A DNA stretch of 64,000 nucleotides from the NCBI GenBank assembly GCA_034436555.1, contig DAOTUU010000054.1, positions 94,793 through 158,792 of the forward strand, read 5' to 3'. This DNA is from Chloroflexota bacterium (GTDB lineage Bacteria > Chloroflexota > Limnocylindria > Limnocylindrales > CSP1-4). Positions 4,155-55,760 of the stretch are shown piece after piece; the stretch's first letter is position 1, and every line of letters starts with the position of its first letter. Below the pieces are notes generated by a model, which saw only the letters and a program-made list of their open reading frames with translations, was not told where the DNA came from and ran no database searches. A program made the translations under genes and the position numbers.

Positions 4155-4325
4155 GGGGTCTGGGGAGTCCTCCGAGCCTGCGGGTGGAAGCGCGATTGTC
4201 GCCCAGCCAGGTCGAACATGCCCTGACCGACTGCAACCCTTCGACCCGACGGTGCCTCTGGGATGGTGAGACGTGACCCCCGATCCGCCACCCGGCGGAG
4301 CGCGTCGACAGCAAGGAGCCATCCG

Positions 4326-4892: not shown

Positions 4893-5056
4893 CCGGCACC
4901 AGCACGGACCCGTGGTCGTTCGGACCGCGGGATTGACCGATCAGGACCCACGGGCGCGCACTCCCTGACCGCGCCCGCGGGTCCTGTCCGCGTGGTCACG
5001 CCGGCCACCGGCCCCCCATCTCCTCCACCCTCCCGGCCCAGCTATCGTGAGGTCTC

Positions 5057-12775: not shown

Positions 12776-12812
12776 CAGGACTTAGTCAAGGACTTAGTCA
12801 AGGACTTAGTCT
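12776..12812. promoter_or_regulatory. AT-rich 12-mer direct repeat (ggacttagtcaa, 3 copies) upstream of the antitoxin gene; candidate TA operator/promoter
   Basis: A low-GC island sits in a 72% GC genome, 36-72 bp upstream of the antitoxin start. The TTGACT -35-like hexamer is iterated. Confidence 0.55.
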
Positions 12813-21447: not shown

Positions 21448-21504
21448 CCCGCGTCGTCCCTGACCGGCGTCGTCCCGATCGGGGACGCGCCCAGGAAGCG
21501 GGAG

Positions 21505-21558
21505 CGCGCCCCGGAATCGAGAGAGCGCCCCGGAATCGAGAGCGCCCCGGAATCGGGA
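21505..21558. repeat. 17-18-bp tandem repeat (gcgccccggaatcgagag, about 3 copies)
   Basis: The repeats lie directly 5' of the terminator hairpin. Confidence 0.6.
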
Positions 21559-21583
21559 ACGCCCCGCCGGATCGGCGGGGCGT
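21559..21583. terminator. Bidirectional intrinsic terminator hairpin (acgccccgccg-gatc-cggcggggcgt)
   Basis: A perfect 11-bp GC stem with a 4-nt loop lies between the convergent MFS and yeaQ-like genes. Confidence 0.6.
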
Positions 21584-27077: not shown

Positions 27078-28106
27078 TCAGGGTGGGCTCTCGCCGGAGC
27101 CTCGTGCGATCAGCCGGGTGGGGATGACGATGCGCTGTGGCGGGCGCGCATCTCCGGCCAGGCGCGCGAACAGCAGCTCCGCGCCGGCGCGACCGATCTC
27201 GCCCGGGTCGTAGGCCATCACGCTCACCGGGACCCGCGCCAGGTCGGCCAGCTCGAAGTCGTCGAAGCCCACCACCGCGCAGCGCGCGTCCTCCGCGGCG
27301 AGCGCCCGCAGCACCCCCAGGCAGTTGCGGTTGTTCTGGGCCAGGATCGCGGTCGCCGGATCGGCGAGCCCGAGGAGCGCACGGGTCGCGGCGATGGACG
27401 TGTCGCTGCCCGTCGGGCTGATGCGCACGAGGTCCGGATCGGCAGGCAGGCCCGCGGCCGCATGTGCCGCCTGGTAGCCCCGCAGCCGTTCCAGCGAGGG
27501 CGACACGGACAGCGCATCGCCGACGTACCCGATGCGCCGGTGGCCATGCGCGATGAGGTGTGCCGTCGCCCGCCGCGCGCCATCCTCGTTGTCCAGGACC
27601 ACGGTGTCCGCCGCCACGCCTCCCGGCGCCCGGTCGAGGAACACGACCGGCACGCCCGGTCGGACGAGACCCGCGAGGTAGCGATGGTCCTGGCCCGCGG
27701 GCACGAGCAGCAGGCCCTCCACGCCCCGCCCGACCAGCCCGGCGACGAGATCCCGCTCCCGCGCGGCATCCTCGCCCGACGAGGTGAGCATGAGCGCCCG
27801 CCCGTGGCGCAGTGCCACCTGCTCCACGGCGCCCGCCAGGCTGGCGTAGAAGGGGTTGGCGAGGTCCTCGATGATGAGCCCGACGGTGGGCAGGGACAGG
27901 CCCTTGCGCAGGTTGCGGGCGGCATCGTTGCGGCGATAGCCGAGCGTCCGGATGGCCTCCTCCACGCGCGCCGCGGTGGCGGGACGCACACCCGGCTCCG
28001 CGTTCACGACGCGCGACACGGTCTTCGCGCTCACGCCGCTCCGGCGCGCCACATCCTCGAGGGTGATCGTGGGATGGACCGTTGACATCGTTGACATGCT
28101 ACTCAA
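27078..28106 (-). CDS. LacI-family transcriptional regulator
   Basis: It has an N-terminal HTH (TLEDVARRSGVSAKTVSRVVN) and a periplasmic-binding-like effector domain. Confidence 0.85.
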   Translation of the reverse strand: MSSMSTMSTVHPTITLEDVARRSGVSAKTVSRVVNAEPGVRPATAARVEEAIRTLGYRRNDAARNLRKGLSLPTVGLIIEDLANPFYASLAGAVEQVALRHGRALMLTSSGEDAARERDLVAGLVGRGVEGLLLVPAGQDHRYLAGLVRPGVPVVFLDRAPGGVAADTVVLDNEDGARRATAHLIAHGHRRIGYVGDALSVSPSLERLRGYQAAHAAAGLPADPDLVRISPTGSDTSIAATRALLGLADPATAILAQNNRNCLGVLRALAAEDARCAVVGFDDFELADLARVPVSVMAYDPGEIGRAGAELLFARLAGDARPPQRIVIPTRLIARGSGESPP

Positions 28107-28269
28107 CCCGGACGTGGCAGTGTGATCGCTCCCGCTCGGTCACCACGTGGCGACGGGGGATGACAGCGTTGACAGGCTCGACGCACGCCCTCTACGATGG
28201 GTCCGGACGGTTACCGGGACCGTCGCCGGGGCCCCATGTGACGGGCCGCATGATCGGAGGAGTGGAATC
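28107..28269. promoter_or_regulatory. Divergent promoter/operator region between lacI and the sugar ABC operon
   Basis: The gttgaca heptamer is iterated (gttgacatcgttgacatg; gacagcgttgacagg), and GGAGG precedes the GTG start of the substrate-binding-protein gene. Confidence 0.35.
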
Positions 28270-29598
28270 GTGACCTCACGCACCACGGCCGCGCACACGG
28301 GACAGCCGGCGCGTCGCAGCCGTCGCGCGCTCGCAGCCGCGTGCCTCGCGGGCGCCACGCTGCTGGGCACCTCGCTGGGCGGCGCCACGGCGCTCGCCCA
28401 GGAGCCCTCGGGCGACATCTCGTTCTTCGGCTGGGACGTCGCGGACGTCACGTCCGGCCTGGGCAAGGGTTTCGAGGCGGCCCGCGTCGCGTTCCAGGAC
28501 GCCAATCCGGGCGTGACCGTCACGTTCGACGCGGTCCCGTTCGGCGACTTCGTGTCCGCGGCCACCACCCGCGCCCGCGCGGGCGAGCTGGGCGACGTCG
28601 TGGAGATGCTCCCCGGTCTCAACCATGCGCCCGTGTTCGACGCGCTCGCGCCGACCACGAAGGCCGACTGGGGCGCGCTCGGGGATGAGCTGACCGGCTG
28701 GGCCGGCGGCGTCATCGACCCGGCGGACCCGGACACGTTCGCGGGCGTGCCGATCGGTGGCCAGGGCGTCATCTGGTACTACAACAAGGCGCTGTTCGAG
28801 CAGGCGGGCCTGGACCCGGCCGCCCCGCCCCAGACGTGGGCGGAGTTCGCGGATGCCGCGAACAAGCTCAAGGAGGCGGGCATCACGCCGATCGCGGCGT
28901 CCGGTGTGGACTCGTTCCTCGCCTGGTGGGCCTGGTCCAGCTTCTCGCCCCAGTACTTCACCGCGGATGACGTGCTCAAGATCCGCTCCGGCGAGATCCC
29001 GCTGAACGATCCGCGCGTGCTCGCGTCGCTCCAGCCGGTCCAGGAGATGTTCGCCAACGGCTGGTGGAACGCGGACTATGCGGACAAGGCGTTCACGGAC
29101 ATGGAGTCGGCGTTCATCAACGGCCAGGTCGCGATGATCCCGGGCATCATCACCTCGATCGTGAACTGGAACGTGTGGGACGCCCAGATGGGCAAGGACG
29201 CGTACGGCGTGTTCGGCGCCCCCAAGCGGGACGACGCCACGAGCGACGGGCAGTTCTTCAACCCGACCCTCATCTACGGCGTCAACGCGGCGTCCAAGAA
29301 CCCCGACACCGCGAAGGCGTTCATCGCCTTCCTCGCGTCCAAGGAGGGGCAGGAGATCCTGCTCACCAACAGCGGCCAGTTCCCCAACCGCGCGGACATC
29401 GACCTCGCGGCGGTGGCCGGCAGCGCAGGCGCGCAGGCGATCCAGGCCGTCATCGACGCGCGCGGCGCGTCGGACGTCATCCAGAACCAGTTCTCCGCGG
29501 CGGCCCAGGGTGAGGCGTTCCAGAAGCTGACCCAGGCCATCGTGTCCGGCGACCTCCAGGGCCTCCTGGACGGCATGCAGGCGCAGCAGGGGAGCTGA
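28270..29598 (+). CDS. ABC sugar transporter substrate-binding protein (family 1) with signal peptide
   Basis: The GTG start follows GGAGG, and there is a lipoprotein-like signal peptide (AAACLAGATLLGTSLGG). Confidence 0.85.
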   Translation: MTSRTTAAHTGQPARRSRRALAAACLAGATLLGTSLGGATALAQEPSGDISFFGWDVADVTSGLGKGFEAARVAFQDANPGVTVTFDAVPFGDFVSAATTRARAGELGDVVEMLPGLNHAPVFDALAPTTKADWGALGDELTGWAGGVIDPADPDTFAGVPIGGQGVIWYYNKALFEQAGLDPAAPPQTWAEFADAANKLKEAGITPIAASGVDSFLAWWAWSSFSPQYFTADDVLKIRSGEIPLNDPRVLASLQPVQEMFANGWWNADYADKAFTDMESAFINGQVAMIPGIITSIVNWNVWDAQMGKDAYGVFGAPKRDDATSDGQFFNPTLIYGVNAASKNPDTAKAFIAFLASKEGQEILLTNSGQFPNRADIDLAAVAGSAGAQAIQAVIDARGASDVIQNQFSAAAQGEAFQKLTQAIVSGDLQGLLDGMQAQQGS

Positions 29599-29622
29599 TC
29601 GGCGGCCGCTCCGGCGGTCCCC

Positions 29623-30552
29623 ATGACCCGATCGGTCGAGCCGGCCACCCGCCAGGGTGGCCGGCTCCGTTCACGGCTCCGGCTCGGCGCAGGACGCAGG
29701 GATGCGCTGCTGTTCGTGCTGCCCCTGGCGGTGCTGCTGCTGGTGTTCGTGTATGCACCCATGGCGCGCCTGGTGGCCTACTCCTTCACGGAGTACAACG
29801 GCCTCCGCCCCGCGGAGTGGGTGGGCCTCGACAACTTCCGGTTCCTGCTCGACTGGCCGGACTTCCGGCGCGCCGTCGCCAACACGGTGGTGCTCGCGTT
29901 CGGCCTGCTCGTGTGGGTCGGGCTGCCGTTCCTGCTCGCGGTGGTCCTGTTCGGCCGGCGCGGCTCGAACCTGGTGCGGGCCATCCTGTTCCTGCCCGCG
30001 CTGCTGCCCGCGCTCATCGTGGGCCGCTCGTTCCGGCTCGTGCTGGCGGAGAACGGGCCCATCAACTCGGCGCTGCACGGCATCGGCGCGGACGCGCTCG
30101 CCCAGCCCTGGCTGTCGTCCGAGACGTGGGTGCTGCCCACGCTCATCGCGGTCATCGCCTGGGCGACCATGGGCACCGGCACGCTGCTGTACTCCGCGGG
30201 GCTGGCGTCCCTCTCGCGGGACTACGTGGAGGCGGCCGTGGTGGACGGCGCGCGCTGGCATCAGCTGGTGTGGCACATCTATCGCCCCGCGCTCACACCC
30301 GTAACCCGCTTCTGGGTGCTGCTGCTGACGATCGGCACGGTGACCTCCTTCTTCCCCTGGATCCTGGGCCTGACCCAGGGCGGCCCGGGCATCGCGTCGG
30401 TGACCATCGACTACCAGGTCTATCGCTCCGGCGTCCAGACCAGCCGGCTGGGCCTCGCATCGGCGATCGCGGTCGTGGGCGTCGTCGTCATCGCGATCCT
30501 GCTCGCGGGCCAGCTGGCGCTGCGCCGCATCCGCGGCCAGGACGACTGGTGA
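29623..30552 (+). CDS. ABC sugar transporter permease (MalF/UgpA-type)
   Basis: It has six transmembrane segments and an EAA motif region. Confidence 0.85.
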   Translation: MTRSVEPATRQGGRLRSRLRLGAGRRDALLFVLPLAVLLLVFVYAPMARLVAYSFTEYNGLRPAEWVGLDNFRFLLDWPDFRRAVANTVVLAFGLLVWVGLPFLLAVVLFGRRGSNLVRAILFLPALLPALIVGRSFRLVLAENGPINSALHGIGADALAQPWLSSETWVLPTLIAVIAWATMGTGTLLYSAGLASLSRDYVEAAVVDGARWHQLVWHIYRPALTPVTRFWVLLLTIGTVTSFFPWILGLTQGGPGIASVTIDYQVYRSGVQTSRLGLASAIAVVGVVVIAILLAGQLALRRIRGQDDW

Positions 30553-30562
30553 GCGACGTGGC

Positions 30563-31390
30563 ATGAAGGAGGGGCGCGCGCTCCGCTGGGGCTCCCGCAT
30601 CGTGATGGCCGTGGCGGTCGTCGCGGTGCTGTTCCCGCTCATCTGGGTGGTGCGGGTCGCGACCAAGACCGAGGACGGCTTCATCTCCGACCCGGCCAGC
30701 CTGGGCGGCGGCTTCACCCTGGACAACTTCGGGCGTGCCTGGGATGCGGTGGACCTGGGCGGCGCCATCCTCGATTCGCTGTCCATCACGCTGCCCGGCG
30801 CCGCGCTCGCCACGTTCGTGGGGGTGCTGGCGGGCTACGCCTTCGCGAAGCTGCCGGTCCCGGCGCGTCGCCTGCTGCTGGTGCTGGCGGTGGGCGGCCT
30901 GACCATCCCCATCGCGGCGCTGGTCATCCCCCAGTTCGACCAGGCGCTGATCCTGGGCTACCTGGACACGCGCTGGGGCGTGATCCTGGTCTACGGCAGC
31001 TTCTTCGCGAGCTGGAGCAGCCTGTTCTTCTTCAGCTACTTCAAGGACCTGCCGGGCGACCTGCTGGAGGCCGCCTCGCTGGATGGTGCGAGCGCGTCCC
31101 GCGCGTTCTGGGCGGTCGCCCTGCCGCTCGCGGGACCGGCCGTGGCGGTGGGCTTCGTGCTCAACGTGTTCCTCCAGTGGAGCGAGCTGCTGCTGGGCCT
31201 CATCCTGCTGCCCGGCGGCGATGTGACCACCGCGATGACCGCCATCGCCACGTTCTCCACCCAGTTCCGCACCGGCGGCCCGCTCACCGCGGCGGCCACG
31301 GTCATCGTGGCGCTGCCCATCTTCCTGCTGTTCATCGGCGCCCAGCGGTATCTCCGGACGGAGATCTTCGGCGGCTCGATCAAGGGCTGA
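30563..31390 (+). CDS. ABC sugar transporter permease (MalG/UgpE-type)
   Basis: It has six transmembrane segments and an EAAxLDGA motif. Confidence 0.85.
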   Translation: MKEGRALRWGSRIVMAVAVVAVLFPLIWVVRVATKTEDGFISDPASLGGGFTLDNFGRAWDAVDLGGAILDSLSITLPGAALATFVGVLAGYAFAKLPVPARRLLLVLAVGGLTIPIAALVIPQFDQALILGYLDTRWGVILVYGSFFASWSSLFFFSYFKDLPGDLLEAASLDGASASRAFWAVALPLAGPAVAVGFVLNVFLQWSELLLGLILLPGGDVTTAMTAIATFSTQFRTGGPLTAAATVIVALPIFLLFIGAQRYLRTEIFGGSIKG

Positions 31391-31402
31391 GAAAGGACCA
31401 CG

Positions 31403-33886
31403 ATGACCGCACCCACCTTCCGCAACCTGCTGGACCACCCGCTGTCGGTGCCCGACTGGGAGCTCGTCCCGGCCTCGCCCATCCGGACCGACGGTCGGTC
31501 GATGTGGCGCACGGTGGACGGTGATGCGTCGGCCGACCGGATCGTCCATGCGCGCGCGGTGCAGGGGGTGTCGGGGCCGCTGCGCCTGGAGCGGGTCGGC
31601 CTGCGCCGGGGGGTCGGCTACCACAAGTGCGCCAGCTCCCAGGAGTGGGATGCGCCGGCGCGCGTGCGCCTCCTGGCCCACCGGGACGGCGCGCTCCACG
31701 AGGTCGGGGCCTGGACGCTCGACGCGCCGCCCGCACCGGATGAGATTCGCTGGTTCGACGCGTCGGTCACCTCCGAGCTGCTGATCGCGATCGTGGAGGA
31801 TGCGTTCATCGATCGGGGCTGGCCCTCGTGGAACCTGGCGCGGACCGGGTTGGTGCTCGACGGGGCCGCCACGACCCCTTGGCGGCGCCCGGCGTACGGG
31901 CTGCTGGAACCGGTCGGATCGGCCACGGGGGAGGTGGCGCCGGGGGTCCACGCCGAGATGCGCCACGACGAGATCCGCTTCCGCACGCGCTTCCTGGAGG
32001 TGGGCTTCCGCCTGCGCAGCGCCGCCCTGTCGTTCCTGTCGCTGGACGTGGACGGGGCCGGGCGGACCGAACGCAACCTCGTGCAGCTGCCGCGGTCGAT
32101 GGACATCGTGCGCACCGGACTCTATCCGGCGGGGGTCTATCCGGTGCTGCGCGACGCCCAGGCGGGCTACCTCGCGAACGGGCCGCGGCTCACGCTTCTC
32201 GACGGTCGCGAGCCGGCGGGCTTCCTGGCGACCGAGACGCGGGGCACGGTCAGCCTGGACGGGGCGAGCGTCACGTACGACCTGGCGCTGGGGGACGCAG
32301 GCGTGCGCTACCGGCTGCGCTGGACGGTCGCCGAGGACGGTCTCCGGCTGGACCTGGAGCGTGATGTGGATGCGCCGCTGATGGCGTGGCAGAGCGCGGC
32401 GTGGCAGGTGCCGCTGAACAACCGGATGGCGATGTCCACCCTCCTGGGGCCGCTGGTGCGAGAGGGGCAGACCGGGCTCGTGGCGGCCCCCGCCACGTGG
32501 CACGTCCCGGCGTTCGGGTCGTTCGTGATCGAGGCGGACGGGGACGTGCGGCTGCGCAGCGATTCGGTGCGGCCGCTGGACACGAACACGCTCGAGATCA
32601 GGCTCGCGGAGGCGCCCCGGCCGGACGGGAGCGTCGCCATCGCCGCGGGTCGCGCGACCGGGTCGGTGCGGTTCGCGGTGCGCACGCCCCGGCTCGTCGC
32701 CACGAAGGCCGGCACGCCCGGGACCGTGGCGCGGGCGCTGGACCGACACCTCGCCACCGCGCTGGCGTTCCGCGCGGACACGGCGACGCTGTCCAACAAC
32801 GGTGCCTCGATGCACTGCGCAGGCACGCTCAACCCGATCGGAGACGTCATCGCGGCGGCGCCCGCGGGCCGGGACGGCATCGACCCCGTGGCGATCCTGG
32901 AGTCGTCGCTGTCGCGCTGGCTGTCCGGGGCGCCGGGCTACGGATCGGGGAACACCTCGCGCGGCGACTTCACGATCGAGGACGAGTACCTGATGCTGGG
33001 CGCGGACGCGCTCTACGGCCTGGGCCGGCTGCTGGGCGTCACGTCGGCGGGGTGGTTCGACGCGCACGAGGAGCGGATCGGCCGTGCCATCGGGGCGATG
33101 CGCGCCCGCGACCTGGACGGGGACGGCCTGGTGGAGAGCCCCCACCGACGGGGTGTGACCGGCGAGCACCAGTGGAGCACCACCTGGGCGGACGTCGTGT
33201 CGATGGGCTGGAAGGACGCCTGGTCGAACGCCGTGCTGTACGCGGCGCTGGGACTGCTGGCCGCGGGGTTCCGGCGCTTCGGGCGGGAGGCCGCGGCGGC
33301 CGACCTGGACCGCTGGGCGGGGCGGCTGCGCGCGGCCTATGCACCGACGTTCCTGGATGATCGCACCGGCTGGCTCATCGGGTGGCGCTCGCCGGACGGC
33401 ACGCCCCATGACTCCTGCCACGTCCAGCTCAACGGGGACGCGGTGGCGGCCGGGCTGCTGGACCCTGCGCCGGCGCGGCGTGTGATGGAGCGGGTGTGGG
33501 CCGAGCTGGAGCGGGTGGGCTACACCGACCTCGCGAACGGACTGCCGATCAACCTCCACCCGGTGGCGGAGGATGACCTGGGCGGGGTGGTGTTCGGGCT
33601 GCCCATCGGCGGGTACCTCCAGGGCGGGGCCTCGCACCACCGCACGGGCGGGTTCGTGCAGGCGCTGTACGACGTGGGCATGACCGCCGAGGGGGACCGG
33701 CTGCTGGAGGCGCTGTGCTCGTCGGTGGCGGACGACTCCTCGTTCGGGGGGATCGGCACGGGACGTGACTGGCGGCTGTGGGACGGCACGCCGAGCGGCT
33801 ACGAGGGGCTCCTGGCGGAGGGGTTCGGGTTCCTCGCGGTGGCCGTGCGGCGCTGGGGTGAGGTGGCGGAGGGCGCCGCGCGCTGA
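31403..33886 (+). CDS. Large hypothetical protein (827 aa), putative glycoside hydrolase of the sugar-utilisation operon
   Basis: It is in operon position after the permeases and has GC3 bias. No family was recognised. The 1165-aa antisense ORF is rejected. Confidence 0.6.
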   Translation: MTAPTFRNLLDHPLSVPDWELVPASPIRTDGRSMWRTVDGDASADRIVHARAVQGVSGPLRLERVGLRRGVGYHKCASSQEWDAPARVRLLAHRDGALHEVGAWTLDAPPAPDEIRWFDASVTSELLIAIVEDAFIDRGWPSWNLARTGLVLDGAATTPWRRPAYGLLEPVGSATGEVAPGVHAEMRHDEIRFRTRFLEVGFRLRSAALSFLSLDVDGAGRTERNLVQLPRSMDIVRTGLYPAGVYPVLRDAQAGYLANGPRLTLLDGREPAGFLATETRGTVSLDGASVTYDLALGDAGVRYRLRWTVAEDGLRLDLERDVDAPLMAWQSAAWQVPLNNRMAMSTLLGPLVREGQTGLVAAPATWHVPAFGSFVIEADGDVRLRSDSVRPLDTNTLEIRLAEAPRPDGSVAIAAGRATGSVRFAVRTPRLVATKAGTPGTVARALDRHLATALAFRADTATLSNNGASMHCAGTLNPIGDVIAAAPAGRDGIDPVAILESSLSRWLSGAPGYGSGNTSRGDFTIEDEYLMLGADALYGLGRLLGVTSAGWFDAHEERIGRAIGAMRARDLDGDGLVESPHRRGVTGEHQWSTTWADVVSMGWKDAWSNAVLYAALGLLAAGFRRFGREAAAADLDRWAGRLRAAYAPTFLDDRTGWLIGWRSPDGTPHDSCHVQLNGDAVAAGLLDPAPARRVMERVWAELERVGYTDLANGLPINLHPVAEDDLGGVVFGLPIGGYLQGGASHHRTGGFVQALYDVGMTAEGDRLLEALCSSVADDSSFGGIGTGRDWRLWDGTPSGYEGLLAEGFGFLAVAVRRWGEVAEGAAR

Positions 33887-33953
33887 GCCCCGGCCCCGGC
33901 CCCGGCCCCCCGGCCCCCCGGTCCCGGCCCTGATGCCCTCGCTCGCCGCGGGC

Positions 33954-34439
33954 CTACTCCCGGTCGCGCTCCCGCTCGATGTCACGGCGTGACCGCACGA
34001 CCATCACCGGCACGGTGCTGTTGCGGACGACGAAGTCGGACGTGGAGCCCATCAGCATCCGGCCCACGCCGCCGCGCCCGGTGGTCCCCATCACGATGAT
34101 GTCGGCCGACTCCGCCTCTGCTGCCGCGATGATGGTCTCGCCGGGGTCGCCCTCCCAGATGATGGACTGCGCCTCCACGCCCCACTCGCTCGCGTGCTCC
34201 AGCACCGAATCGGTGGTCTCCTGCGCCTCGGTGATCTCTTCGTCCTCCTCTCGCGAGGAGGACCGACGACTGTCGGGTTCGTCTGGGGATTCCCCGTCCT
34301 CGGTGGTCCCTTCCGGGACGACGCTCAGGACCAGGAGTCTGGCGCCGGTGTCGTGCGCCAGGTCCAGGGCCGCCTCGACCGCACCATCCGAATCGCTGGT
34401 GCCGTCGGTCGCCACAAGGACCGTCTGGAAGCGTGTCAT
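33954..34439 (-). CDS. Universal stress protein (UspA family)
   Basis: It has VLVATDGSDSDGAVEAA...ADIIVMGTTGRGG and an acidic disordered insert. The start is set at MTRFQTV. Confidence 0.8.
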   Translation of the reverse strand: MTRFQTVLVATDGTSDSDGAVEAALDLAHDTGARLLVLSVVPEGTTEDGESPDEPDSRRSSSREEDEEITEAQETTDSVLEHASEWGVEAQSIIWEGDPGETIIAAAEAESADIIVMGTTGRGGVGRMLMGSTSDFVVRNSTVPVMVVRSRRDIERERDRE

Positions 34440-34554
34440 GCCTGCCTCGTGCGTGCGGGGCGGCGATGACTGCGGTGCGCCCCGCGAGGCGCCATCGTCC
34501 CACCTCGCGGCCTTCCGCGTCGAGGGGTGCCGCAGGCCGCGTCGCGCTGCTCCG

Positions 34555-35155
34555 GGGGTCGGACGACATGTCGACCGCGCTGGACCGCGGCGCCGCCCCC
34601 CGCCGCCCGGCCGCCGCGCCGCCCCGGCGACCGGACGACATGTCGACCGCGGTGGACCGCGGGGGACCCTGGCGCCGCCCCGCGCCGCCCGGCCGCCGCG
34701 CACCCCCGGCGACCGGACGACATGTCGACCGCGGTGGGCCGCGGCGCCGCCCCGCGCCGCCCGGCCGCCGAGCTACCCCGCGGGTCGGTCGACATGTCGA
34801 CCGCGGGGGGACCGCGCTGGACCGCGGCGCCGCCCCCCGCCGCCCGGCCGCCGCGCCGCCCCCGGCGACCGGACGACATGTCGACCGCGGTGGGCCGCGG
34901 CGCCGCCCCGCGCCGCCCGGCCGCCGAGCCACCCCGCGGGTCGGTCGACATGTCGACCGCGGGGGGACCGCGCTGGACCGCTGCGCCGCCCGGCCGCCGC
35001 GCACCCCCGGCGACCGGACGACATGTCGACCGCGGTGGGCCGCGGCGCCGCCCCCCTCCGCCGGGCCGCGGTGGGCCGCGGCGCCGCCCCCCTCCGCCCG
35101 GCCGCGCTGGACCGCGGCGCCGCCCCCCGCCGCCCGGCCGCGGTCACCCGAGATC
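34555..35155. repeat. Tandem repeat array of about 600 bp, with alternating units of about 72 and 83 bp (about 4 dimers), each carrying a GTCGACATGTCGAC-type palindromic core; MIRU/VNTR-like
   Basis: The core acatgtcgaccgcgg recurs at 34566, 34638, 34720, 34792, 34876, 34948 and 35021. The perfect palindrome ggtcgacatgtcgacc alternates with the imperfect ggacgacatgtcgacc. Confidence 0.8.
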
Positions 35156-35250
35156 CCGCTACCGGTCGCGCGCGTTCTGCACTACCATCGGGCCGCGCTC
35201 CCTGCCGGGACCGCCGTCATCGTCAACGCGCGGAGCCAGAGCCCGGACCG

Positions 35251-36270
35251 ATGCCGAACCTGCCCATCTCCCGACCGCACATGCCCCGCCCGGTCCGTCT
35301 GCGCTCGCACCGCGCATCGACGGAGCCGGCAGCCGCCCCTGCCGTGCGACGGGATGTCGTGGCCAGTTCCGCGCTGCGCTGGATCAACATCGAGCGACCC
35401 CAGGCGGCGGACGGCGAGTGGCTGCTCAAGGAGTTCGGGTTCCACCCGCTGGACCTGGAGGACGTGTTCTCCCGAAACCAGCGTCCCAAGCTGGACACGT
35501 ACGATGAGTACCTGTTCCTCGTGATGCAGTTCCCGACCTATGAGAAGGCGCGTCGTCGACTCATCAGCGTCGAGCTGGACGTGTTCATCGGGCCCGACTA
35601 CCTGGTCACGCTGCCGAACCACGAGCTGCCCCCGCTGGAGGCGCTGTTCGAGCGATTCGGGGAGCGGGAGGACCTGCGCGACAGCACGTTCGCCAAGGGC
35701 TCCGGCTACCTGCTGTATCGCATCATCGACGCGTGTGTGGATTCGAGCTTCCCGATGCTGCGCAAGATGGGCCTCCGCCTGGACGGCATGGAGGATGACA
35801 TCTTCGAGCAGGAGCGCACCGAGCAGAACGTGCGGGAGCTCAACGACCTGAAGCTGGAGATCATCTCATTCCGGCGCATCGTGCGTCCCCAGCGCGCGGT
35901 GCTGCGCGACCTGGAGCGCTCCAAGCAGCGCTATCTCGCAGAGGAGATGGACATCTACTTCGATGACATCTCGGACGCGGCAGAACGGATCTGGGACATC
36001 CTGGAGAACTACAAGGAGGTCATCGAGTCGCTCGAATCCACCAACGAGTCGGTGCTGTCCCATCGCCTCAACGACGCCATCAAGGTGCTGAACGCGGTGA
36101 GCGTGCTGGTGCTGCCCGCAACGCTCATCGCGAGCATCTGGGGCATGAACGTGTGGCTGCCCGGCGGCACGGACAACGGGTCGCTCGACAGCTTCGTGCT
36201 CCTGATGGTGGTGATGCTGGGCACGATCGTGTTCACGGTCGTGTTCATGCGCCGAAAGGGCTGGCTGTAA
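35251..36270 (+). CDS. corA: CorA-family magnesium/cobalt transporter
   Basis: It has the GMN signature (IWGMNVW), two C-terminal transmembrane segments and an acidic N-terminal domain. The start is set after the repeat array. Confidence 0.85.
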   Translation: MPNLPISRPHMPRPVRLRSHRASTEPAAAPAVRRDVVASSALRWINIERPQAADGEWLLKEFGFHPLDLEDVFSRNQRPKLDTYDEYLFLVMQFPTYEKARRRLISVELDVFIGPDYLVTLPNHELPPLEALFERFGEREDLRDSTFAKGSGYLLYRIIDACVDSSFPMLRKMGLRLDGMEDDIFEQERTEQNVRELNDLKLEIISFRRIVRPQRAVLRDLERSKQRYLAEEMDIYFDDISDAAERIWDILENYKEVIESLESTNESVLSHRLNDAIKVLNAVSVLVLPATLIASIWGMNVWLPGGTDNGSLDSFVLLMVVMLGTIVFTVVFMRRKGWL

Positions 36271-36273
36271 CCC

Positions 36274-37512
36274 TTGACCGCTGCCGAGCCGGTCGCAGGT
36301 CCCGGACCAGGCCCGGACCAGCCCCAGGTCGAGCTGCTGGGTGTGCCACCGGGCACGCCTCGCTTCGCGCCGCTCCGGCTGCCCAGCGCCCCATTCTGGG
36401 TGGTGGTCATCGGCGTCCTCGCGGCGAGCGTCGTGCTGGTCCTGTCGGTGCACGCCCTGTTCGTGTTCATGATCGGCGCCGCGCTCTCGTTCTTCCTCGT
36501 GCCGGTCGTGAACTGGCTCCAGGCGAAGGGCGTGCCGCGCATCGGGGCGGCCATCCTGGTGGTGGCGACGCTGGTGATCGTGACGCTCGTGGGACTGGCC
36601 GTGATCACCATCATCCTCGTGGATCAGGGGACCGCGTTCCTTGCGGCGCTGCCCACCCTCCTTGCGGACATCGAGGCGCAGCTGGGGTCGGCCGACCTCC
36701 CCGCCTGGCTGGAGGATGCCCTCGCGTCGATCAGCGCGAGCCTCCAGGCCTCAACCTCGCAGGCGACCGCGGGGACGCTGATCCTCGGGGTGCTTCAGGG
36801 CGTGCTGGGCATGCTCGGGTTCCTGTTCAGCCTCATGCTGCTGCCGTTCTTCCTGTTCTACCTGCTCAAGGACCAGCCGAAGATGGCGCACACCTTCTAC
36901 GCGAAGGTGCCGCTGCCATGGAAGGCGGACGTGAGCCGGATGATCACGATCTTCGTCGAGGACTTCGCGACCTATTTCAAGGCGGAGCTGATGGTCGGGT
37001 CCATCATGTTCTGCATCGTGTCGATCGGCATGTTCGCGATCGGGACGATCATCCCGGATGCGCACATCCTCGTGGAGTTCGCGCTGCTGCTGGGGCTCGC
37101 CGCGTTCGTGTTCGAGCTCATCCCCCAGATCGGCCCGATCCTGTCCTATATCCCGGCCCTGCTCCTCGCCCTGACGGTGAGCCCCGTGGCGGTGGTCGTG
37201 GTGTCCGTGTTCTATTTCATCGCGTTCAACATCGAGGGGTCGATCCTGGTGCCCACGTTCCAGGGGCGGATGATCAGCTTCAGCGGTGCCAGCGTGCTCG
37301 TGCTCATCGCCATCGGGTTCGCCCTGGCAGGGATCATCGGGGCGATCATCGCGCTTCCCGTGGCGGCCATCACCCGCGACATCTTCGGGTTGTTCTTCGT
37401 GCGCGCCCAGGAGTTCGCGGGGCTGCCGCCGACCCCCGATGCGCTCCCCGTGGCGATGCAGGATGCGGCGGCTGCCGCGACCGACGGCGGACTCGCTCCG
37501 GCCGGCGGCTGA
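36274..37512 (+). CDS. AI-2E-family transporter (PerM/YdiK-like permease)
   Basis: It has eight transmembrane segments and the family motif LPFFLFYLLKD. There is a TTG/alternative start. Confidence 0.8.
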   Translation: MTAAEPVAGPGPGPDQPQVELLGVPPGTPRFAPLRLPSAPFWVVVIGVLAASVVLVLSVHALFVFMIGAALSFFLVPVVNWLQAKGVPRIGAAILVVATLVIVTLVGLAVITIILVDQGTAFLAALPTLLADIEAQLGSADLPAWLEDALASISASLQASTSQATAGTLILGVLQGVLGMLGFLFSLMLLPFFLFYLLKDQPKMAHTFYAKVPLPWKADVSRMITIFVEDFATYFKAELMVGSIMFCIVSIGMFAIGTIIPDAHILVEFALLLGLAAFVFELIPQIGPILSYIPALLLALTVSPVAVVVVSVFYFIAFNIEGSILVPTFQGRMISFSGASVLVLIAIGFALAGIIGAIIALPVAAITRDIFGLFFVRAQEFAGLPPTPDALPVAMQDAAAAATDGGLAPAGG

Positions 37513-37696
37513 CCCGATCCCTCCCCGCGGCGGGCCCGAGCTCCCCGCGGCGGGCCCCATCGTCCCCTGCGGCGGACCCCATCGTCCCCGCGGCGGACCC
37601 GGCCCCTGCGGGACATCGCCACCGCGCCGTCCCGCGCGATGGACGCGACAGGGTACGCTTGCCTGGTCGCGCCCACGAGACGGGAGGATCAGCACC

Positions 37697-41590: not shown

Positions 41591-41650
41591 GTTGACGGCC
41601 ATGGTAGAGTGCTGCGTAATCGGTTGCATAAATCGGTTGCATGGAGTGGC
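41591..41650 (+). promoter_or_regulatory. Putative promoter/operator upstream of the DegT-family gene
   Basis: It contains TTGACG, TAGAGT/TAATCG and a 12-bp direct repeat aatcggttgcat x2 in a locally AT-richer stretch. The start of the real aminotransferase ORF follows GAGGAG. Confidence 0.35.
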
Positions 41651-42910: not shown

Positions 42911-44035
42911 TTGGGGCGGATGCGGACGATGCGCGAGGGACCGCCCGCACGGCGTGTCACGCTCGCCGACGTGGCGGCGCGCGCGGGAGTCTCGCGGGCC
43001 ACCGCATCCCGGGCCCTCGTCGATGACGAGCGCATCAGCGCCGGCACGCGGGCCGTCGTCCAGGAGGCCGCCGAGGCGCTCAAGTACGTGCCCAACGCGG
43101 CGGCCCGCAGCCTCCGGCGACGGCGCACCGGCATCCTGGGCCTGCTGCTCGCGGACCTGGGCGACCCGGTCCACGGCCAGGTCGCAGCGGGCTTTGAGCA
43201 GGCCGCGGCCGCCGACGGCTACACCGTGGTCATCGTGGCCGCGTCCAACGTGCCGGACCACGAGCGCGCCGCCATCGACGTGTTCGTGGAGCACGCCACC
43301 GACGGCATCGCGCTCGTGTCCAGCGTGCTGGAGCCCGCCGAGGCGCGCGAGCGGGCGGGCCCGGGGCGCCCGGTCGTCATCGTCCAGCCCGACGCCCCCG
43401 GCATCCTCCGCGAGCAGGGCGCCCCTCCCGACGGGCTCATCCAGACCGACGATGTGGGTGGCGTGACCGCGGCCGCCCGGCATCTCGTCGAGACCGGGCA
43501 CCGCCGGGTGCTGTACCTGGGGGCCGGCGGCCGATCCTCGGATGAGGTGCGGCGCGAGGCGGCGTCCCGGGTGATCCGCGAGGCCGGACTGGAGCCGCTG
43601 TCCACGACGTCCCTGCCGGACGACGCGTGGCGCACTCCGACGCTGGTGGCGGACGCGGTGGCCCACCCGCTCCCCGATGCGGTGCTGTGCTACGACGACA
43701 AGCTCGCCCTGGCCCTGCTCGACGGCCTGCGTGCGCGGGGCCTGCGGGTGCCTCGGGACGTGTCCGTCGTGGGCTTCGACGACATCCCCTTCGCGGCGAT
43801 CTCCAACCCGCGGCTGACCACGGTGTCGACCCCCACCGACGAGCTGGGCAGGCTCGCCGCCCGGGGGCTCGTCCAGGCCATCCGCGACGGGCGCCTGCCG
43901 CCGGGACGGGTCCTGCCCACGCGGCTCGCGACGCGCGAGAGCGTGCGAACGCGAAACGCCGCGCACCGCGCGGACATCCCCCCGATGGACGCCGCGGTCG
44001 CGCCGAGCGAGGCGATCGCCGGGAGCGCCGGATGA
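42911..44035 (+). CDS. LacI-family transcriptional regulator
   Basis: It has an N-terminal HTH (TLADVAARAGVSRATASRAL) and a sugar-binding-type effector domain. Confidence 0.8.
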   Translation: MGRMRTMREGPPARRVTLADVAARAGVSRATASRALVDDERISAGTRAVVQEAAEALKYVPNAAARSLRRRRTGILGLLLADLGDPVHGQVAAGFEQAAAADGYTVVIVAASNVPDHERAAIDVFVEHATDGIALVSSVLEPAEARERAGPGRPVVIVQPDAPGILREQGAPPDGLIQTDDVGGVTAAARHLVETGHRRVLYLGAGGRSSDEVRREAASRVIREAGLEPLSTTSLPDDAWRTPTLVADAVAHPLPDAVLCYDDKLALALLDGLRARGLRVPRDVSVVGFDDIPFAAISNPRLTTVSTPTDELGRLAARGLVQAIRDGRLPPGRVLPTRLATRESVRTRNAAHRADIPPMDAAVAPSEAIAGSAG

Positions 44036-44090
44036 GCGCCGGGAGCGCCGGATGAGCGCCGGGAGCGCCGGGATGAGCGCCGGGATGAGC
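44018..44090. repeat. 20-bp tandem repeat (gagcgccgggagcgccggat, about 3 copies) at the lacI / ABC-ATPase junction
   Basis: It yields the iterated MSAGSAGMSAGMSTGM N-terminus and makes the ATPase start ambiguous. Confidence 0.6.
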
Positions 44091-45209
44091 ACCGGGATGC
44101 CCGCCATCGAGCTGGTCGCCGCCACCAAGCGATACGGCGACGCGGTCGCCCTCGACGCGGTGTCCCTGGCCATCGAGTCGGGGGAGTTCTTCTGCCTCCT
44201 GGGTCCGTCGGGCTGCGGCAAGACCACGACCCTCAACCTCATCGGCGGATTCCTGCCGCTCACCTCCGGCGAGCTGCGCATCGAGGGTCGCGTGGTCAAC
44301 GACCTGCCGCCCCATCGGCGCAACGTCAACACCGTGTTCCAGAGCTACGCCCTGTTCCCGCACATGACGGTCGCGGACAACGTCGCGTTCGGGCTGCGCA
44401 TGGAGGGCCTGGACCGACGGGAGGTGTCCTCACGGGTGGGCGAGTACCTCTCGCTCGTCGGCCTCGAGGGGTACGCGGACCGCCACCCCGGCCAGCTCTC
44501 CGGCGGCCAGCAGCAGCGGGTGGCGCTCGCCCGGGCCCTCGCCAAGCGCCCCGCGGTGCTGCTGCTCGATGAACCCCTGGGCGCGCTCGACCTCAAGCTC
44601 CGGCGGGCGATGCAGCTGGAGCTGTCGCGCATCCACCGCCAGGTCGGCACCACGTTCGTGTTCGTGACCCACGACCAGGAGGAGGCGCTGTCGATGGCGA
44701 CCCGCATCGCCGTGATGTCCGGCGGGCGCGTGGTCCAGGCCGGCACGCCCCAGGAGATCTACCTGCGCCCCCGGACCCGGTTCGTGGCCGACTTCATCGG
44801 CGAATCGAACTTCCTCGACGGCACGGTCGCGGGCGGCGATGGCGACGCGGGGCTCCAGCTCCCGGACGGGCAGCGCCTGCCGGTGCCCGCCGGCACGGCG
44901 CCCGGTCCCGCCACGCTGATGGTGCGGCCGGAATCGGTGGAGCTGCGCGCGCCCGATGCCGGGGCACCGATCCACCTGCGCGGTCGCGTGCGCCACGCGG
45001 CGTTCATGGGAACCCACACCCGGATCACGGTCGACACGACGGCGGGCGCCCTCGTCGTGCTGCGACATCACCACAGCGGCGTCGGGGAGGTCGCACCCCT
45101 GGAGCGACCGGGACAGGAGGCCGGCATCTGGTGGGCAGCTGAGACAGCCACGATCCTGGAGCGAGACAGTGGAGGAGGCATCGATGGACCCGATCAGGCA
45201 GCTACTTGA
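44052..45209 (+). CDS. ABC transporter ATP-binding protein (PotA/spermidine-putrescine-type, with TOBE C-terminal domain)
   Basis: It has Walker A GPSGCGKTT, LSGGQQQRVALARAL and Walker B LLLDEPLGALD. The likely true start is MPAIELV (44097). Confidence 0.8.
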   Translation: MSAGSAGMSAGMSTGMPAIELVAATKRYGDAVALDAVSLAIESGEFFCLLGPSGCGKTTTLNLIGGFLPLTSGELRIEGRVVNDLPPHRRNVNTVFQSYALFPHMTVADNVAFGLRMEGLDRREVSSRVGEYLSLVGLEGYADRHPGQLSGGQQQRVALARALAKRPAVLLLDEPLGALDLKLRRAMQLELSRIHRQVGTTFVFVTHDQEEALSMATRIAVMSGGRVVQAGTPQEIYLRPRTRFVADFIGESNFLDGTVAGGDGDAGLQLPDGQRLPVPAGTAPGPATLMVRPESVELRAPDAGAPIHLRGRVRHAAFMGTHTRITVDTTAGALVVLRHHHSGVGEVAPLERPGQEAGIWWAAETATILERDSGGGIDGPDQAAT

Positions 45210-53039: not shown

Positions 53040-53460
53040 TCGCCCGCGGTGCGGGGGACGAACCACCGGGCGGTCGCCGGTGCCCCGCGCCCCGGTCCAC
53101 CCGCCGGTCGGTGCTCCCCATGCACCGATCGGCCGCCGGGACGTCGGTCGGTGCACCCGGCGCACCGTTCGACCGCCGGCACCTCCCCCGGCCGCCCGGT
53201 GGTGCACCGGGTGGGCCAGGCGCGGAGGACGGGCCAGGGCGGAGCGCGGGCAAGAGCGCGGGCAAGAGCGCGGGCCGGGCGCGGTGCGCGGGCCGGGAGC
53301 GCGCGCCCGCGGCGTCGGTCATCTGATGACGAACCGTCATGGCGGGACCCCACCTCCAGCCCGGCGCACGCCCCCCGGCGCACGCCTTCCGGAACGCCCG
53401 CCGGCGCACGCCCCCCGGCGCACGCCCCCCGGCGCACGCCCGCCAGCCGGCGGGACCGAC
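53040..53460. repeat. Repeat-rich GC intergenic region (ccggcgcacgcccc x5; gggcaagagcgc x2; other short iterated motifs)
   Basis: It lies between the sulP start and iolB and generates spurious ORFs on both strands. Confidence 0.5.
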
Positions 53461-55639: not shown

Positions 55640-55760
55640 CCGCCTGGCCGACACGATCGCCCGGACGACACGTCCGACCCCGGACGACACGCCAGGGCCC
55701 GCAGCGCCACCCAGGCCCGGACGACCCGACCCCGGACGACACATCCAGGCCCGTACGGCC
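55640..55760. repeat. Short tandem/dispersed repeat gaccccggacgacacRtcc (about 4 copies) in the tal / channel intergenic region
   Basis: It shares the 10-mer CCGGACGACA with the 34555..35155 array. Confidence 0.5.

What the first reader, a model, noticed from the sequence alone, without database searches (positions are those of the whole stretch)
34555..35155. MIRU/VNTR-like tandem array with alternating 72/83-bp units carrying perfect GTCGACATGTCGAC palindromes between uspA and corA
Seven copies of a core acatgtcgaccgcgg occur at alternating spacings of 72 and 82-84 bp, forming about four 155-bp dimers. Every second core is the perfect 16-bp palindrome ggtcgacatgtcgacc, and the others are the one-mismatch variant ggacgacatgtcgacc. 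The array has no stop codons. It is therefore read through by long artefactual ORFs on both strands, including a 763-aa frame that fuses it to corA. The 155-bp period is not a multiple of 3, which argues against a coding repeat. Iterated palindromes placed immediately upstream of a Mg2+/Co2+ channel gene suggest a multi-site protein-binding or recombinogenic/variable-number locus. No cas genes are present and the intervening segments are themselves repeated, so this is not a CRISPR.
Basis: seen in the sequence. Interest (0 to 1): 0.62.

Follow-up and report, generated by a model that had tools for sequence, protein, structure and literature searches.

The report
Palindrome-centred intergenic repeat array, Chloroflexota
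A roughly 600-bp non-coding tandem repeat built around an 18-bp perfect palindrome was inserted between the usp and corA genes of an uncultured soil Chloroflexota bacterium; it belongs to a small family of similar arrays in that lineage, comparable to known bacterial intergenic repeat arrays but of unknown function.

Summary
The array is real. Seven cores, CGG(T/A)CGACATGTCGACCG, lie 72, 82, 72, 84, 72 and 73 bp apart at 34557-35152, followed by a core-less 36-bp sub-repeat tail. It sits between divergent Usp and CorA genes. Only 2 of the 7 cores are perfect palindromes. The array is non-coding: there is no codon-position GC signal, and four lineages with 85-91% identical CorA and the same synteny have a 171-238-bp spacer with no core. 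The array is therefore a lineage-specific insertion of about 596 bp between conserved promoter-proximal flanks. The same palindrome forms 3-5-copy arrays at other intergenic loci in metagenome contigs of the same clade. Between arrays only the roughly 22-bp core is conserved; the spacers are at random-level identity. Core spacings fall into classes of about 63, 73 and 84 bp, close to 6, 7 and 8 helical turns. No cas, transposase or par genes occur in the 64 kb, and there is no Rfam hit. The best reading is a new dispersed palindromic-repeat array similar in architecture to REP/BIME and Neisseria NIME. The palindrome is probably a protein-recognition site, and the arrays grow by tandem duplication. 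Function and copy-number variation remain untested.

The parts
33954..34439 (-). Universal stress protein gene (161 aa), transcribed away from the array
   Evidence: Pfam Usp, E = 5.9e-37. An identical protein is encoded on three Logan contigs that end inside array unit 1.
34440..34556 (.). usp-proximal part of the spacer, conserved in lineages that lack the array
   Evidence: It aligns with L024, L092, L089, L096, L097 and L039 as far as the CGTCGAG motif and partly beyond.
34557..35152 (+). Inserted tandem array of about 596 bp: seven core-bearing units of 72, 82, 72, 84, 72 and 73 bp, followed by a core-less tail; 86% G+C
   Evidence: It is absent from orthologous spacers of 171-238 bp. No frame shows a GC3 signal. 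There is no Rfam match.
34560..34577 (.). Core 1, CGGACGACATGTCGACCG (one-mismatch palindrome)
34632..34649 (.). Core 2, one-mismatch variant
34714..34731 (.). Core 3, one-mismatch variant
34786..34803 (.). Core 4, perfect 18-bp palindrome CGGTCGACATGTCGACCG
34870..34887 (.). Core 5, one-mismatch variant
34942..34959 (.). Core 6, perfect 18-bp palindrome
35015..35032 (.). Core 7, one-mismatch variant. Its ATG (35023) is in frame with the corA start and no stop codon intervenes, which is an annotation trap.
   Evidence: 35251 - 35023 = 228 = 76 x 3.
34703..34991 (+). Recently duplicated ~156-bp dimer (72-bp unit plus 84-bp unit); the two copies are 98% identical over 133 nt
   Evidence: the repeat finder family D1: 34703-34835 against 34859-34991, 98%. 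TRF period 156, 89% matches.
35030..35144 (+). Tail of a 36-bp sub-repeat (3.2 copies, 93% identical) with no palindrome core; it corresponds to the G+C-only module of the units
35153..35250 (+). corA-proximal spacer conserved in all lineages. It contains the invariant ACTACCATC (35181-35189), a possible -10 region (inferred), and a leader that can pair with the start codon.
   Evidence: Alignment A2. RNAalifold pairs 35215-35222 with 35249-35256, with essentially no covariation.
35251..36270 (+). CorA Mg2+/Co2+ channel gene (339 aa)
   Evidence: Pfam CorA, E = 7.8e-59, covering residues 40-335. Orthologues of 334-339 aa start at the same MPNLP motif.

Best explanation
The segment is a non-coding tandem array that belongs to a small, lineage-restricted, dispersed family of intergenic arrays in an uncultured high-GC Chloroflexota clade. 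Each unit has a conserved core of about 22 bp, CGGTCGACATGTCGACC(G/A)CGG, containing an 18-bp dyad. The rest of each unit is an array-specific spacer of almost pure G+C.

Shown:
- The array is an insertion of about 596 bp into the hypervariable centre of an otherwise conserved usp-corA divergent spacer.
- It recently grew by duplication of a 156-bp double unit.
- Arrays with the same core exist at other intergenic loci of the same clade.
- Only the core is shared between arrays.

Inferred:
- The palindrome is the element that is recognised or selected. The most likely recogniser is a dimeric DNA-binding protein, either a recombinase or transposase that seeds copies or an architectural protein.
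- Local unequal recombination or slippage then expands each seed into an array.
- Unit lengths are kept near whole numbers of helical turns, so that the sites face the same side of the DNA.

In architecture this most resembles Neisseria dRS3/NIME arrays and REP/BIME clusters. The array pushes the usp and corA promoter regions about 600 bp apart and ends about 35 bp upstream of the invariant ACTACCATC motif. Any effect on usp or corA expression is therefore probably a side-effect rather than the purpose of the array.
For: Reality and significance of the repeat.

Non-coding:
- All three codon phases have G+C of at least 0.74-0.96 across the array, whereas usp and corA show clean GC3 patterns.
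- The segment is absent from loci with CorA 85-91% identical and the same Usp-CorA-AI-2E-TPP synteny. Their spacers are 214 bp (L024), 238 bp (L089), 171 bp (L092) and 213 bp (L096), and none contains a core.
- Both flanks align with these loci.

Independent support for the array: three Logan contigs are identical into unit 1, and a metagenome contig with an 88% identical flank shows the same array start.

Dispersed family:
- L046 has 4 cores 73 bp apart, following a nucleoside hydrolase gene and a small ORF.
- L067 has 5 cores at 73, 62, 72 and 72 bp, between a CoA-transferase gene and a low-GC hsdS island.
- L049 has 1 core at a contig end after a MerR gene, plus 3 degenerate cores.
- The L046 hydrolase has the same taxonomic neighbours as the window's CorA, namely Chloroflexota and Limnocylindrales MAGs.

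Core-only conservation: between arrays the core is 89-92% identical and the remainder 58-65%, against a shuffled baseline of 59%. The positional profile agrees.

No stray cores: none with up to 3 mismatches occurs outside arrays in about 200 kb of this clade.

Phasing: spacing classes of 62, 63, 72, 73, 82 and 84 bp give Rayleigh R = 0.90 at a 10.5-bp period, nominal p of about 0.003-0.005.

Other points:
- G+C forms a wave, with troughs of 61-67% at the cores and 100% in the spacers.
- Growth was recent: the two dimer copies are 98% identical.
- The architecture matches the published description of NIME arrays (PMC1797815) and partly that of REP clusters (PMC3733652).
Against: - No binding protein, transposase, RAYT (REP-associated tyrosine transposase) or recombinase was found. 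The 64-kb window encodes only ordinary metabolic and transport genes.
- Genome-wide copy number is unknown. The window holds a single array. A scan of 185,579 species-representative genomes returned only single matches, all those examined lying in unrelated sequence (mostly coding).
- The phasing statistic is post hoc and rests on about four independent indels. The 10-12-bp length steps coincide with a local GACCGCGG sub-repeat of about 10 bp (TRF rows at 34645-34668 and 34799-34829). Slippage alone could therefore produce them.
- Five of the seven cores in the window break the dyad at one position, which is odd for a strictly selected symmetric site.
- Core conservation between loci could reflect recent spread rather than selection.
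- The other family members are short metagenome contigs, and L067 could be chimeric.
Confidence: 0.55

Rival explanations
1. It is a neutral VNTR. This slippage-prone, very GC-rich genome produced a local tandem duplication with no function, and the palindrome is a passenger.
For: The window contains many other short intergenic tandem repeats (21478-21575, 37485-37611, 53213-53441, 55640-55725). Units within the window array are 76-98% identical overall, so by itself this array shows no excess conservation of the core. The centre of this spacer is hypervariable in other lineages too; L097 carries an unrelated insert of about 330 bp there.
Against: The same roughly 22-bp core recurs in arrays at unrelated loci whose spacers are at random-level identity to one another. 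Purely local slippage cannot produce that. No core occurs outside arrays.
Confidence: 0.17
2. It is an RNA-level element. The units are transcribed as part of the usp or corA leader, or of 3' UTRs at other loci. The palindromes form hairpins that stabilise, attenuate or terminate transcripts, as is proposed for REP sequences.
For: Each core can form a 7-8-bp stem. Two L049 cores carry a change (GGTCGACATGTCGGCC) that keeps a G-U pair on one strand. REP elements are credited with such roles (PMC3733652). At L046 and L049 the arrays lie just after stop codons.
Against: Folding of a dimer is only marginally better than shuffles: z = -1.9 on the plus strand and -0.9 on the minus strand. There are no terminator-like T tracts and no Rfam hit. 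A perfect palindrome with no loop, in spacers of 100% G+C, is atypical for an RNA hairpin element. Orientation relative to neighbouring genes is uninformative in divergent or convergent settings.
Confidence: 0.1
3. It is a dedicated cis-regulatory operator array through which a transcription factor controls usp and/or corA.
For: An 18-bp dyad is typical of dimeric helix-turn-helix operators. The array sits between divergent promoters and ends about 35 bp upstream of the invariant ACTACCATC motif.
Against: Close relatives run the same two genes without it. The same palindrome arrays occur next to unrelated genes, including a convergent 3'-3' spacer. Seven sites at roughly 72-bp spacing is not an operator layout.
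Confidence: 0.07
4. It is a centromere-like (sopC-type) partition site or another nucleoprotein scaffold. A ParB-like protein would load on tandem, helically phased palindromes.
For: F-plasmid sopC consists of 12 direct 43-bp repeats, each carrying a 16-bp inverted repeat bound by SopB (PMC3177203). The architecture is the same here, and the spacing is near whole helical turns.
Against: No parA or parB genes occur in the 64 kb. Several arrays exist at different loci. The window looks like ordinary chromosome. The array is absent from sister lineages, which would still need the function.
Confidence: 0.04
5. It is a degenerate orphan CRISPR array.
For: The 72-73-bp period would fit repeats of about 36 nt plus spacers of about 36 nt. 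In L046 and L067 the last unit is degenerate in its 3' part, as in CRISPR terminal repeats.
Against: The spacers are copies of one another, 67-79% identical within arrays. The repeats are conserved over only about 22 nt. No cas genes occur in the 64 kb. Several tiny arrays lie in ordinary intergenic spacers. There is no Rfam CRISPR hit.
Confidence: 0.03
6. It is a translated N-terminal extension of CorA or another protein-coding repeat.
For: An open frame of 763 aa runs through the array into corA. The units of 72, 84 and 156 bp are multiples of three.
Against: No frame has a codon-position GC signature. The 82- and 73-bp units shift the frame. Orthologous CorA proteins of 334-339 aa start at the same MPNLP and lack the segment. 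The Pfam CorA domain begins at residue 40 of the short form.
Confidence: 0.01

Closest known systems
Neisseria intergenic mosaic elements (NIME: dRS3 palindromes separating RS segments)
   Same: NIMEs consist of a roughly 20-bp inverted-repeat element iterated in intergenic arrays. The intervening 50-150-bp segments belong to different families from array to array. The arrays are dynamic and show a regular G+C wave (PMC1797815). Here a roughly 20-bp palindrome is iterated every 62-84 bp, the spacers are array-specific, and there is a G+C wave.
   Different: There is no sequence relationship: dRS3 is ATTCCCN8GGGAAT. The phylum is different. Here the G+C troughs fall on the palindromes, not on the spacers. 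Spacers within one array are paralogous. No associated recombinase or phage is known. Abundance appears far lower.
REP elements and BIME clusters (Enterobacteria, Pseudomonas; GTAG/CGTC super-families)
   Same: They are short extragenic palindromes, dispersed over many loci and sometimes clustered in regularly spaced arrays. Clustered GTAG-23 REPs are reported in the Chloroflexi member Thermomicrobium roseum (PMC3733652).
   Different: There is no unpaired GTAG or CGTC tag. The palindrome is perfect and has no loop. All units are head-to-tail, rather than in the alternating or inverted orientation of REP dimers. No RAYT was found. High copy number is not shown.
MIRU-VNTR loci of Mycobacterium
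   Same: They are direct tandem repeats of 40-100 bp in intergenic DNA of a high-GC bacterium, and they can break short-read assemblies.
   Different: From my own knowledge (Supply et al. 1997), MIRUs sit between co-directional genes of operons and carry small ORFs overlapping the neighbouring stop and start codons. This array lies between divergent genes, is built round a palindrome, and its copy-number polymorphism is not demonstrated.
F-plasmid sopC centromere
   Same: It consists of direct tandem repeats, each carrying a 16-bp inverted repeat that binds a dimeric protein (PMC3177203).
   Different: The unit is 43 bp against about 72 bp here. sopC lies adjacent to sopAB, occurs once per replicon, and is on a plasmid. 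None of these holds here.
CRISPR arrays
   Same: The period is regular at about 72 bp, the repeat contains a palindrome, and the terminal unit is degenerate in two family members.
   Different: The spacers are repeated, the repeats are conserved over only about 22 nt, and there are no cas genes or leader.

Membership tests
REP / BIME | Short (20-40 bp) palindromic unit in extragenic DNA | tested here: met
   The dyad is 18 bp. All arrays lie between genes.
REP / BIME | Conserved unpaired GTAG or CGTC tetranucleotide at one end (PMC3733652) | tested here: not met
   The conserved profile is (C)GGTCGACATGTCGACC(G/A)CGG with no GTAG. CGTC appears only inside the stem of the variant arm.
REP / BIME | Neighbouring units in inverted or alternating orientation (head-to-head or tail-to-tail dimers; BIME) | tested here: not met
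   All units are head-to-tail direct repeats, and the asymmetric GCGG plus G-rich side always lies 3' of the core.
REP / BIME | High copy number dispersed through the genome (often more than 100 copies) | tested here: inconclusive
   At least four loci were found in clade metagenome contigs, but only one array occurs in 64 kb and none in about 130 kb of sister-lineage DNA. No complete genome is available.
REP / BIME | Associated RAYT (IS200/IS605-like tyrosine transposase) flanked by the repeats | tested here: inconclusive
   None was found among the ~50 larger window ORFs scanned with Pfam or NCBIfam. The rest of the genome was not seen.
Neisseria NIME (dRS3 + RS) | A ~20-bp inverted repeat iterated in arrays and separated by 50-150-bp segments of differing families | tested here: met
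   Core spacing is 62-84 bp. Spacers are unrelated between arrays: 58-65% identity against a 59% baseline.
Neisseria NIME (dRS3 + RS) | The dRS3 sequence ATTCCCN8GGGAAT, in a Neisseria host | tested here: not met
   The core is CGGTCGACATGTCGACCG, and the host is Chloroflexota by protein neighbours.
Neisseria NIME (dRS3 + RS) | The palindrome is a target of a site-specific recombinase or of prophage integration | not testable with these tools
   There are only hints. L067 abuts a low-GC R-M island. A 6.9-kb indel lies 0.5 kb from the window array.
MIRU-VNTR | Direct tandem repeats of 40-100 bp in intergenic DNA | tested here: met
MIRU-VNTR | Located between co-directional genes of an operon, with small overlapping ORFs | tested here: not met
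   The array lies between divergent usp (minus strand) and corA (plus strand).
MIRU-VNTR | Copy number differs between strains | tested here: inconclusive
   Presence or absence differs between lineages. Same-species contigs all end in unit 1. L039 has a different left junction.
CRISPR | Near-identical repeats separated by unique spacers | tested here: not met
   Spacers within arrays are 67-79% identical to each other, and the repeats are conserved over only about 22 nt.
CRISPR | cas genes adjacent to the array | tested here: not met
   No cas domain was found among the ~50 window ORFs scanned.
sopC-type partition centromere | Tandem direct repeats, each with a ~16-bp inverted repeat | tested here: met
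   compare PMC3177203.
sopC-type partition centromere | Adjacent parA/parB-type genes; one locus per replicon | tested here: not met
   No par genes occur in the 64 kb, and several arrays exist at different loci.
Coding repeat / CorA N-terminal extension | Codon-position composition bias and conservation in orthologues | tested here: not met
   No frame has a GC3 signal. The segment is absent from orthologues of 334-339 aa.

The most novel reading that the evidence does not exclude
The arrays are helically phased loading platforms for a lineage-specific protein that recognises the 18-bp dyad, either a site-specific recombinase or an architectural protein. That protein both seeds new arrays and promotes rearrangement at them. 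On this reading, a NIME-like recombination system has arisen independently in soil Chloroflexota. It would explain why arrays sit at or near synteny breakpoints: the 6.9-kb indel beside usp, the variable neighbourhood downstream of the L046 hydrolase gene, and the R-M island junction in L067.
Probability: 0.2. Interest if true: 0.6.

Novelty: new variant of a known kind. Interest (0 to 1): 0.36.

Why it matters
Dispersed palindromic repeat arrays such as REP/BIME and NIME are known mainly from Proteobacteria, and their origin and function are still debated. A sequence-unrelated family in an uncultured, very GC-rich Chloroflexota clade would be an independent example. Its features are perfect dyads, direct orientation, near-integral helical spacing and spacers of pure G+C.

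The palindrome is the only conserved part, which makes it a clean bait for finding the partner protein.

There are also practical consequences. The array breaks short-read assemblies at this locus. It creates long spurious ORFs, and an in-frame ATG inside the last core could mis-extend CorA by 76 aa in automated annotation. The biology of usp and corA in this organism is probably unaffected in kind, because both promoter-proximal flanks are intact.

Tried and rejected
- Rfam scan of 33500-36500 at E <= 1: no hits, so no M-box or other riboswitch.
- Sigma-70 promoter and intrinsic-terminator scans: no hits, as expected at 86% G+C.
- Exact look-ups of the window's CorA (two start choices) and of the AI-2E transporter, to find contigs spanning the right edge of the array: not on record.
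- Protein search with the spurious array ORF, to fish out other arrays through mis-called ORFs: 8000 candidates were returned, none with E <= 1.
- Viral contig scan for the 16-mer: 19 single palindromes and no arrays.
- Plasmid blastn: no match.
- Literature search for the palindrome string: nothing for the 14-mer. Shorter strings hit only cloning primers carrying a SalI site followed by ATG.
- Protein P0002 and locus L033, which looked like an N-terminally extended CorA, is an unrelated CorA contig with no array.
- The L011 hit (a Chloroflexia MAG) lies inside open reading frames on both strands with no neighbouring cores, so I treated it as a chance match.
- Test of whether the array spacers derive from the ancestral local flank: best uncorrected p = 0.02-0.09, so inconclusive.
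- The 827-aa lineage-specific neighbour was checked as a candidate binding protein. It has no Pfam or NCBIfam hit, and its position at the end of a sugar ABC-transporter operon suggests a sugar-utilisation role rather than DNA binding.
Full report
**What is in the sequence**

Window 34557-35152 holds a tandem array. The motif ACATGTCGACCGCG starts at 34566, 34638, 34720, 34792, 34876, 34948 and 35021. This gives core-to-core spacings of 72, 82, 72, 84, 72 and 73 bp.

Tandem Repeats Finder (TRF) reports 34560-35141 with period 72 (7.8 copies, 76% matches) and period 156 (3.4 copies, 89%). It also reports a 36-bp sub-repeat at 35030-35144 (3.2 copies, 93%) that carries no palindrome.

The 18-bp sequence CGGTCGACATGTCGACCG is perfectly palindromic only at 34786-34803 and 34942-34959. 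The other five cores have A in place of T at position 4. These two sites are the longest perfect palindromes in the 64 kb.

The core with up to 2 mismatches is found 19 times against 2.4 expected. No shuffle reaches 19, and 14 of the hits are the seven cores read on both strands.

Two dimer copies, 34703-34835 and 34859-34991, are 98% identical, so the last duplication is recent.

The array is 86% G+C in a window of 72.5%. The spacers contain runs of 30-40 nt of 100% G+C, and the cores form troughs of 61-67%.

- 'Every second core is perfect' is not accurate.
- The last spacing is 73 bp.
- The periods 72, 84 and 156 are multiples of three.
- One stop codon lies inside the array on the minus strand.

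**Context**

The array lies in an 811-bp spacer between a Usp gene on the minus strand (33954-34439) and a CorA gene on the plus strand (35251-36270). An AI-2E-family transporter and a TPP enzyme follow.

The ~50 larger ORFs of the window that I scanned encode ordinary chromosomal functions. Examples are histidinol dehydrogenase, Sua5, transaldolase, sugar ABC transporters, LacI regulators, SulP and a subtilase. There is no cas, transposase, RAYT or par gene.

The closest named relatives of CorA are MAGs labelled Chloroflexota (85% and 74% identity) and Candidatus Limnocylindrales (63-65%). The host is therefore an uncultured high-GC Chloroflexota.

**Coding or not**

Across the array all three codon phases are uniformly G+C-rich, whereas usp and corA show the sharp third-position pattern of real genes.

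Orthologous loci settle the question. They come from four lineages with CorA 85-91% identical and the same gene order. Their Usp-CorA spacers are 214, 238, 171 and 213 bp (L024, L089, L092, L096), and none contains a core.

Both ends of the window's spacer align with these loci:
- About 90-115 bp on the usp side aligns.
- About 95 bp on the corA side aligns, including an invariant ACTACCATC at 35181-35189.

The array is therefore a lineage-specific insertion of about 596 bp into the centre of a conserved divergent promoter region. The 763-aa read-through ORF is an artefact.

The centre of this spacer is also variable elsewhere. L097 carries an unrelated insert of about 330 bp at the same place.

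**Independent confirmation of the array**

Three Logan contigs encode the identical Usp. They match the window exactly and all end 163-174 nt upstream of usp, inside unit 1.

A metagenome contig with an 88% identical flank (L039) also runs into a first core, with a somewhat different junction.

The array is therefore real and it breaks short-read assemblies. For the same reason, its copy number in other strains could not be read.

**A family, not a one-off**

A scan of 185,579 species-representative genomes for GGWCGACATGTCGACCGCGG gave only 20 single matches. The flanks I inspected looked coding or unrelated to the family, and L011, the one checked in detail, lies inside open reading frames.

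The metagenome scan gave mostly the same kind of singleton hits. However, four contigs from one set of metagenomes (accession prefixes WBZN, WBZR, WBZX) carry the family:
- L039 is the same locus as the window.
- L046 has four cores 73 bp apart, following a nucleoside hydrolase gene and a small ORF.
- L067 has five cores at 73, 62, 72 and 72 bp, between a CoA-transferase gene and a low-GC type I R-M island.
- L049 has one core at a contig end after a MerR gene, and three degenerate cores 72 and 63 bp apart.

The L046 hydrolase has the same taxonomic neighbours as the window's CorA. Its relatives at 87-92% identity lack any array downstream.

Anchoring all units on the core shows strong conservation only of (C)GGTCGACATGTCGACC(G/A)CGG, with a weak G-rich stretch after it. 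Between arrays the core is 89-92% identical and the rest 58-65%, which equals the shuffled baseline of 59%. Within arrays the rest is 67-79% identical.

No core with up to 3 mismatches occurs outside an array in about 200 kb of DNA from this clade.

**Spacing**

The distinct core-to-core distances are 62, 63, 72, 73, 82 and 84 bp. These are close to 6, 7 and 8 turns of B-DNA. The Rayleigh R is 0.90 at a 10.5-bp period, with a nominal p of 0.003-0.005.

This test is post hoc and rests on about four independent indels. The extra 10-12 bp in the long units coincides with a local GACCGCGG sub-repeat. Slippage is therefore an alternative to selection for phasing.

**Structure and known RNA families**

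There is no Rfam match, and no promoter or terminator consensus.

Single-strand folds pair neighbouring cores with each other, but they are only marginally better than shuffles: z = -2.2 as DNA, and -1.9 and -0.9 as RNA.

**Interpretation**

The data fit a model in which a palindrome of about 20 bp is the recognised or selected module. It is seeded at intergenic sites, and each seed then expands locally by unequal recombination or slippage. This produces array-specific spacers.

That is the architecture described for Neisseria NIME arrays. There, 20-bp dRS3 inverted repeats separate RS segments of many families, the arrays are dynamic and show a G+C wave, and the repeats are proposed recombinase sites (PMC1797815). 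It is also partly the architecture of REP/BIME clusters (PMC3733652).

The array is not a member of either family. It lacks the GTAG or CGTC tag, all units are head-to-tail, the sequence is unrelated, and no RAYT was seen.

It is not a MIRU in the strict sense, because it lies between divergent genes. It is not a CRISPR, because the spacers are repeated and there are no cas genes. It is not a sopC-like centromere, because there are no par genes and there are several loci (PMC3177203).

A role specific to corA is unlikely, because close relatives lack the array and the family occurs beside unrelated genes.

The protein partner, the mobility mechanism and any phenotype are inferred, not shown.

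**Verdict**

This is a real, non-coding, lineage-specific tandem array. It is a new variant of the known class of dispersed palindromic intergenic repeat arrays. It is moderately interesting, mainly as an independent, sequence-unrelated example in an uncultured phylum-level lineage and because of its apparent helical phasing. It also has a practical annotation and assembly consequence: the ATG of the last core at 35023 is in frame with corA.

Noticed in passing
window 27078-33886: A block of about 6.9 kb lies between DUF4380 and Usp in the window. It encodes a LacI regulator, a solute-binding protein, two ABC permeases and an 827-aa protein with no Pfam or NCBIfam hit. Sister-lineage loci (L024, L089, L096) go directly from DUF4380 to Usp. 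The indel breakpoint is only about 0.5 kb from the array.
   Followed up: partly
window 21478-21575, 37485-37611, 44017-44099, 53213-53306, 53360-53441, 55640-55725, 12777-12811, 41618-41642: There are many other short tandem repeats with periods of 9-22 bp, mostly at gene ends or in intergenic DNA. One is a perfect low-GC AGGACTTAGTCA x2.9. The genome seems generally prone to intergenic tandem duplication.
   Followed up: no
window 35181-35256: The corA leader is conserved in all six lineages compared. ACTACCATC (35181-35189) is invariant. A predicted hairpin pairs CGUCAUCG (35215-35222) with the start-codon region (35249-35256). The only variation in its pairs is A-U to G-U in two sequences; there are no compensatory changes there. 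It could be a translational control element for this Mg2+ channel, or simply a conserved promoter and ribosome-binding site.
   Followed up: partly
L097 1880-2200: Another lineage (CorA 86% identical) carries an unrelated insert of about 330 bp at the same position in the usp-corA spacer. It contains two copies of the palindrome GTGGCGCCAC. This central site is an insertion or variation hot spot.
   Followed up: partly
L067 980-3900: This family member abuts a low-GC island (37-59% G+C) encoding a type I R-M specificity subunit. The ORF upstream of hsdS looks 5'-truncated at the junction with the GC-rich array. The other side is a native CoA-transferase gene at 72-77% G+C. This is either a horizontal-transfer junction at the array or a chimeric contig.
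   Followed up: partly
L046 1723-1745, L067 3486-3505, L049 2514-2600: The last unit of these arrays has a shared distinct form, (a/g)ATTCCGGTCGACATGTCG(A/G)CCAC. This suggests that the arrays are polar, with a common terminal unit. The window array instead ends in a 36-bp core-less sub-repeat.
   Followed up: no
window 4580-4851: There is a 132/63-bp tandem repeat (80-88% matches) inside overlapping long ORFs at 3932-5008. On the plus strand it reads as D-G-D-x-T-R-G-N-type repeats. It was not determined whether it is coding.
   Followed up: no
window 35023: The ATG inside the last palindrome core is in frame with the corA start (228 nt upstream, no stop codon). Automated annotation could extend CorA by 76 aa or more. 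The exact 339-aa and 329-aa CorA forms are not on record in the protein collection.
   Followed up: yes
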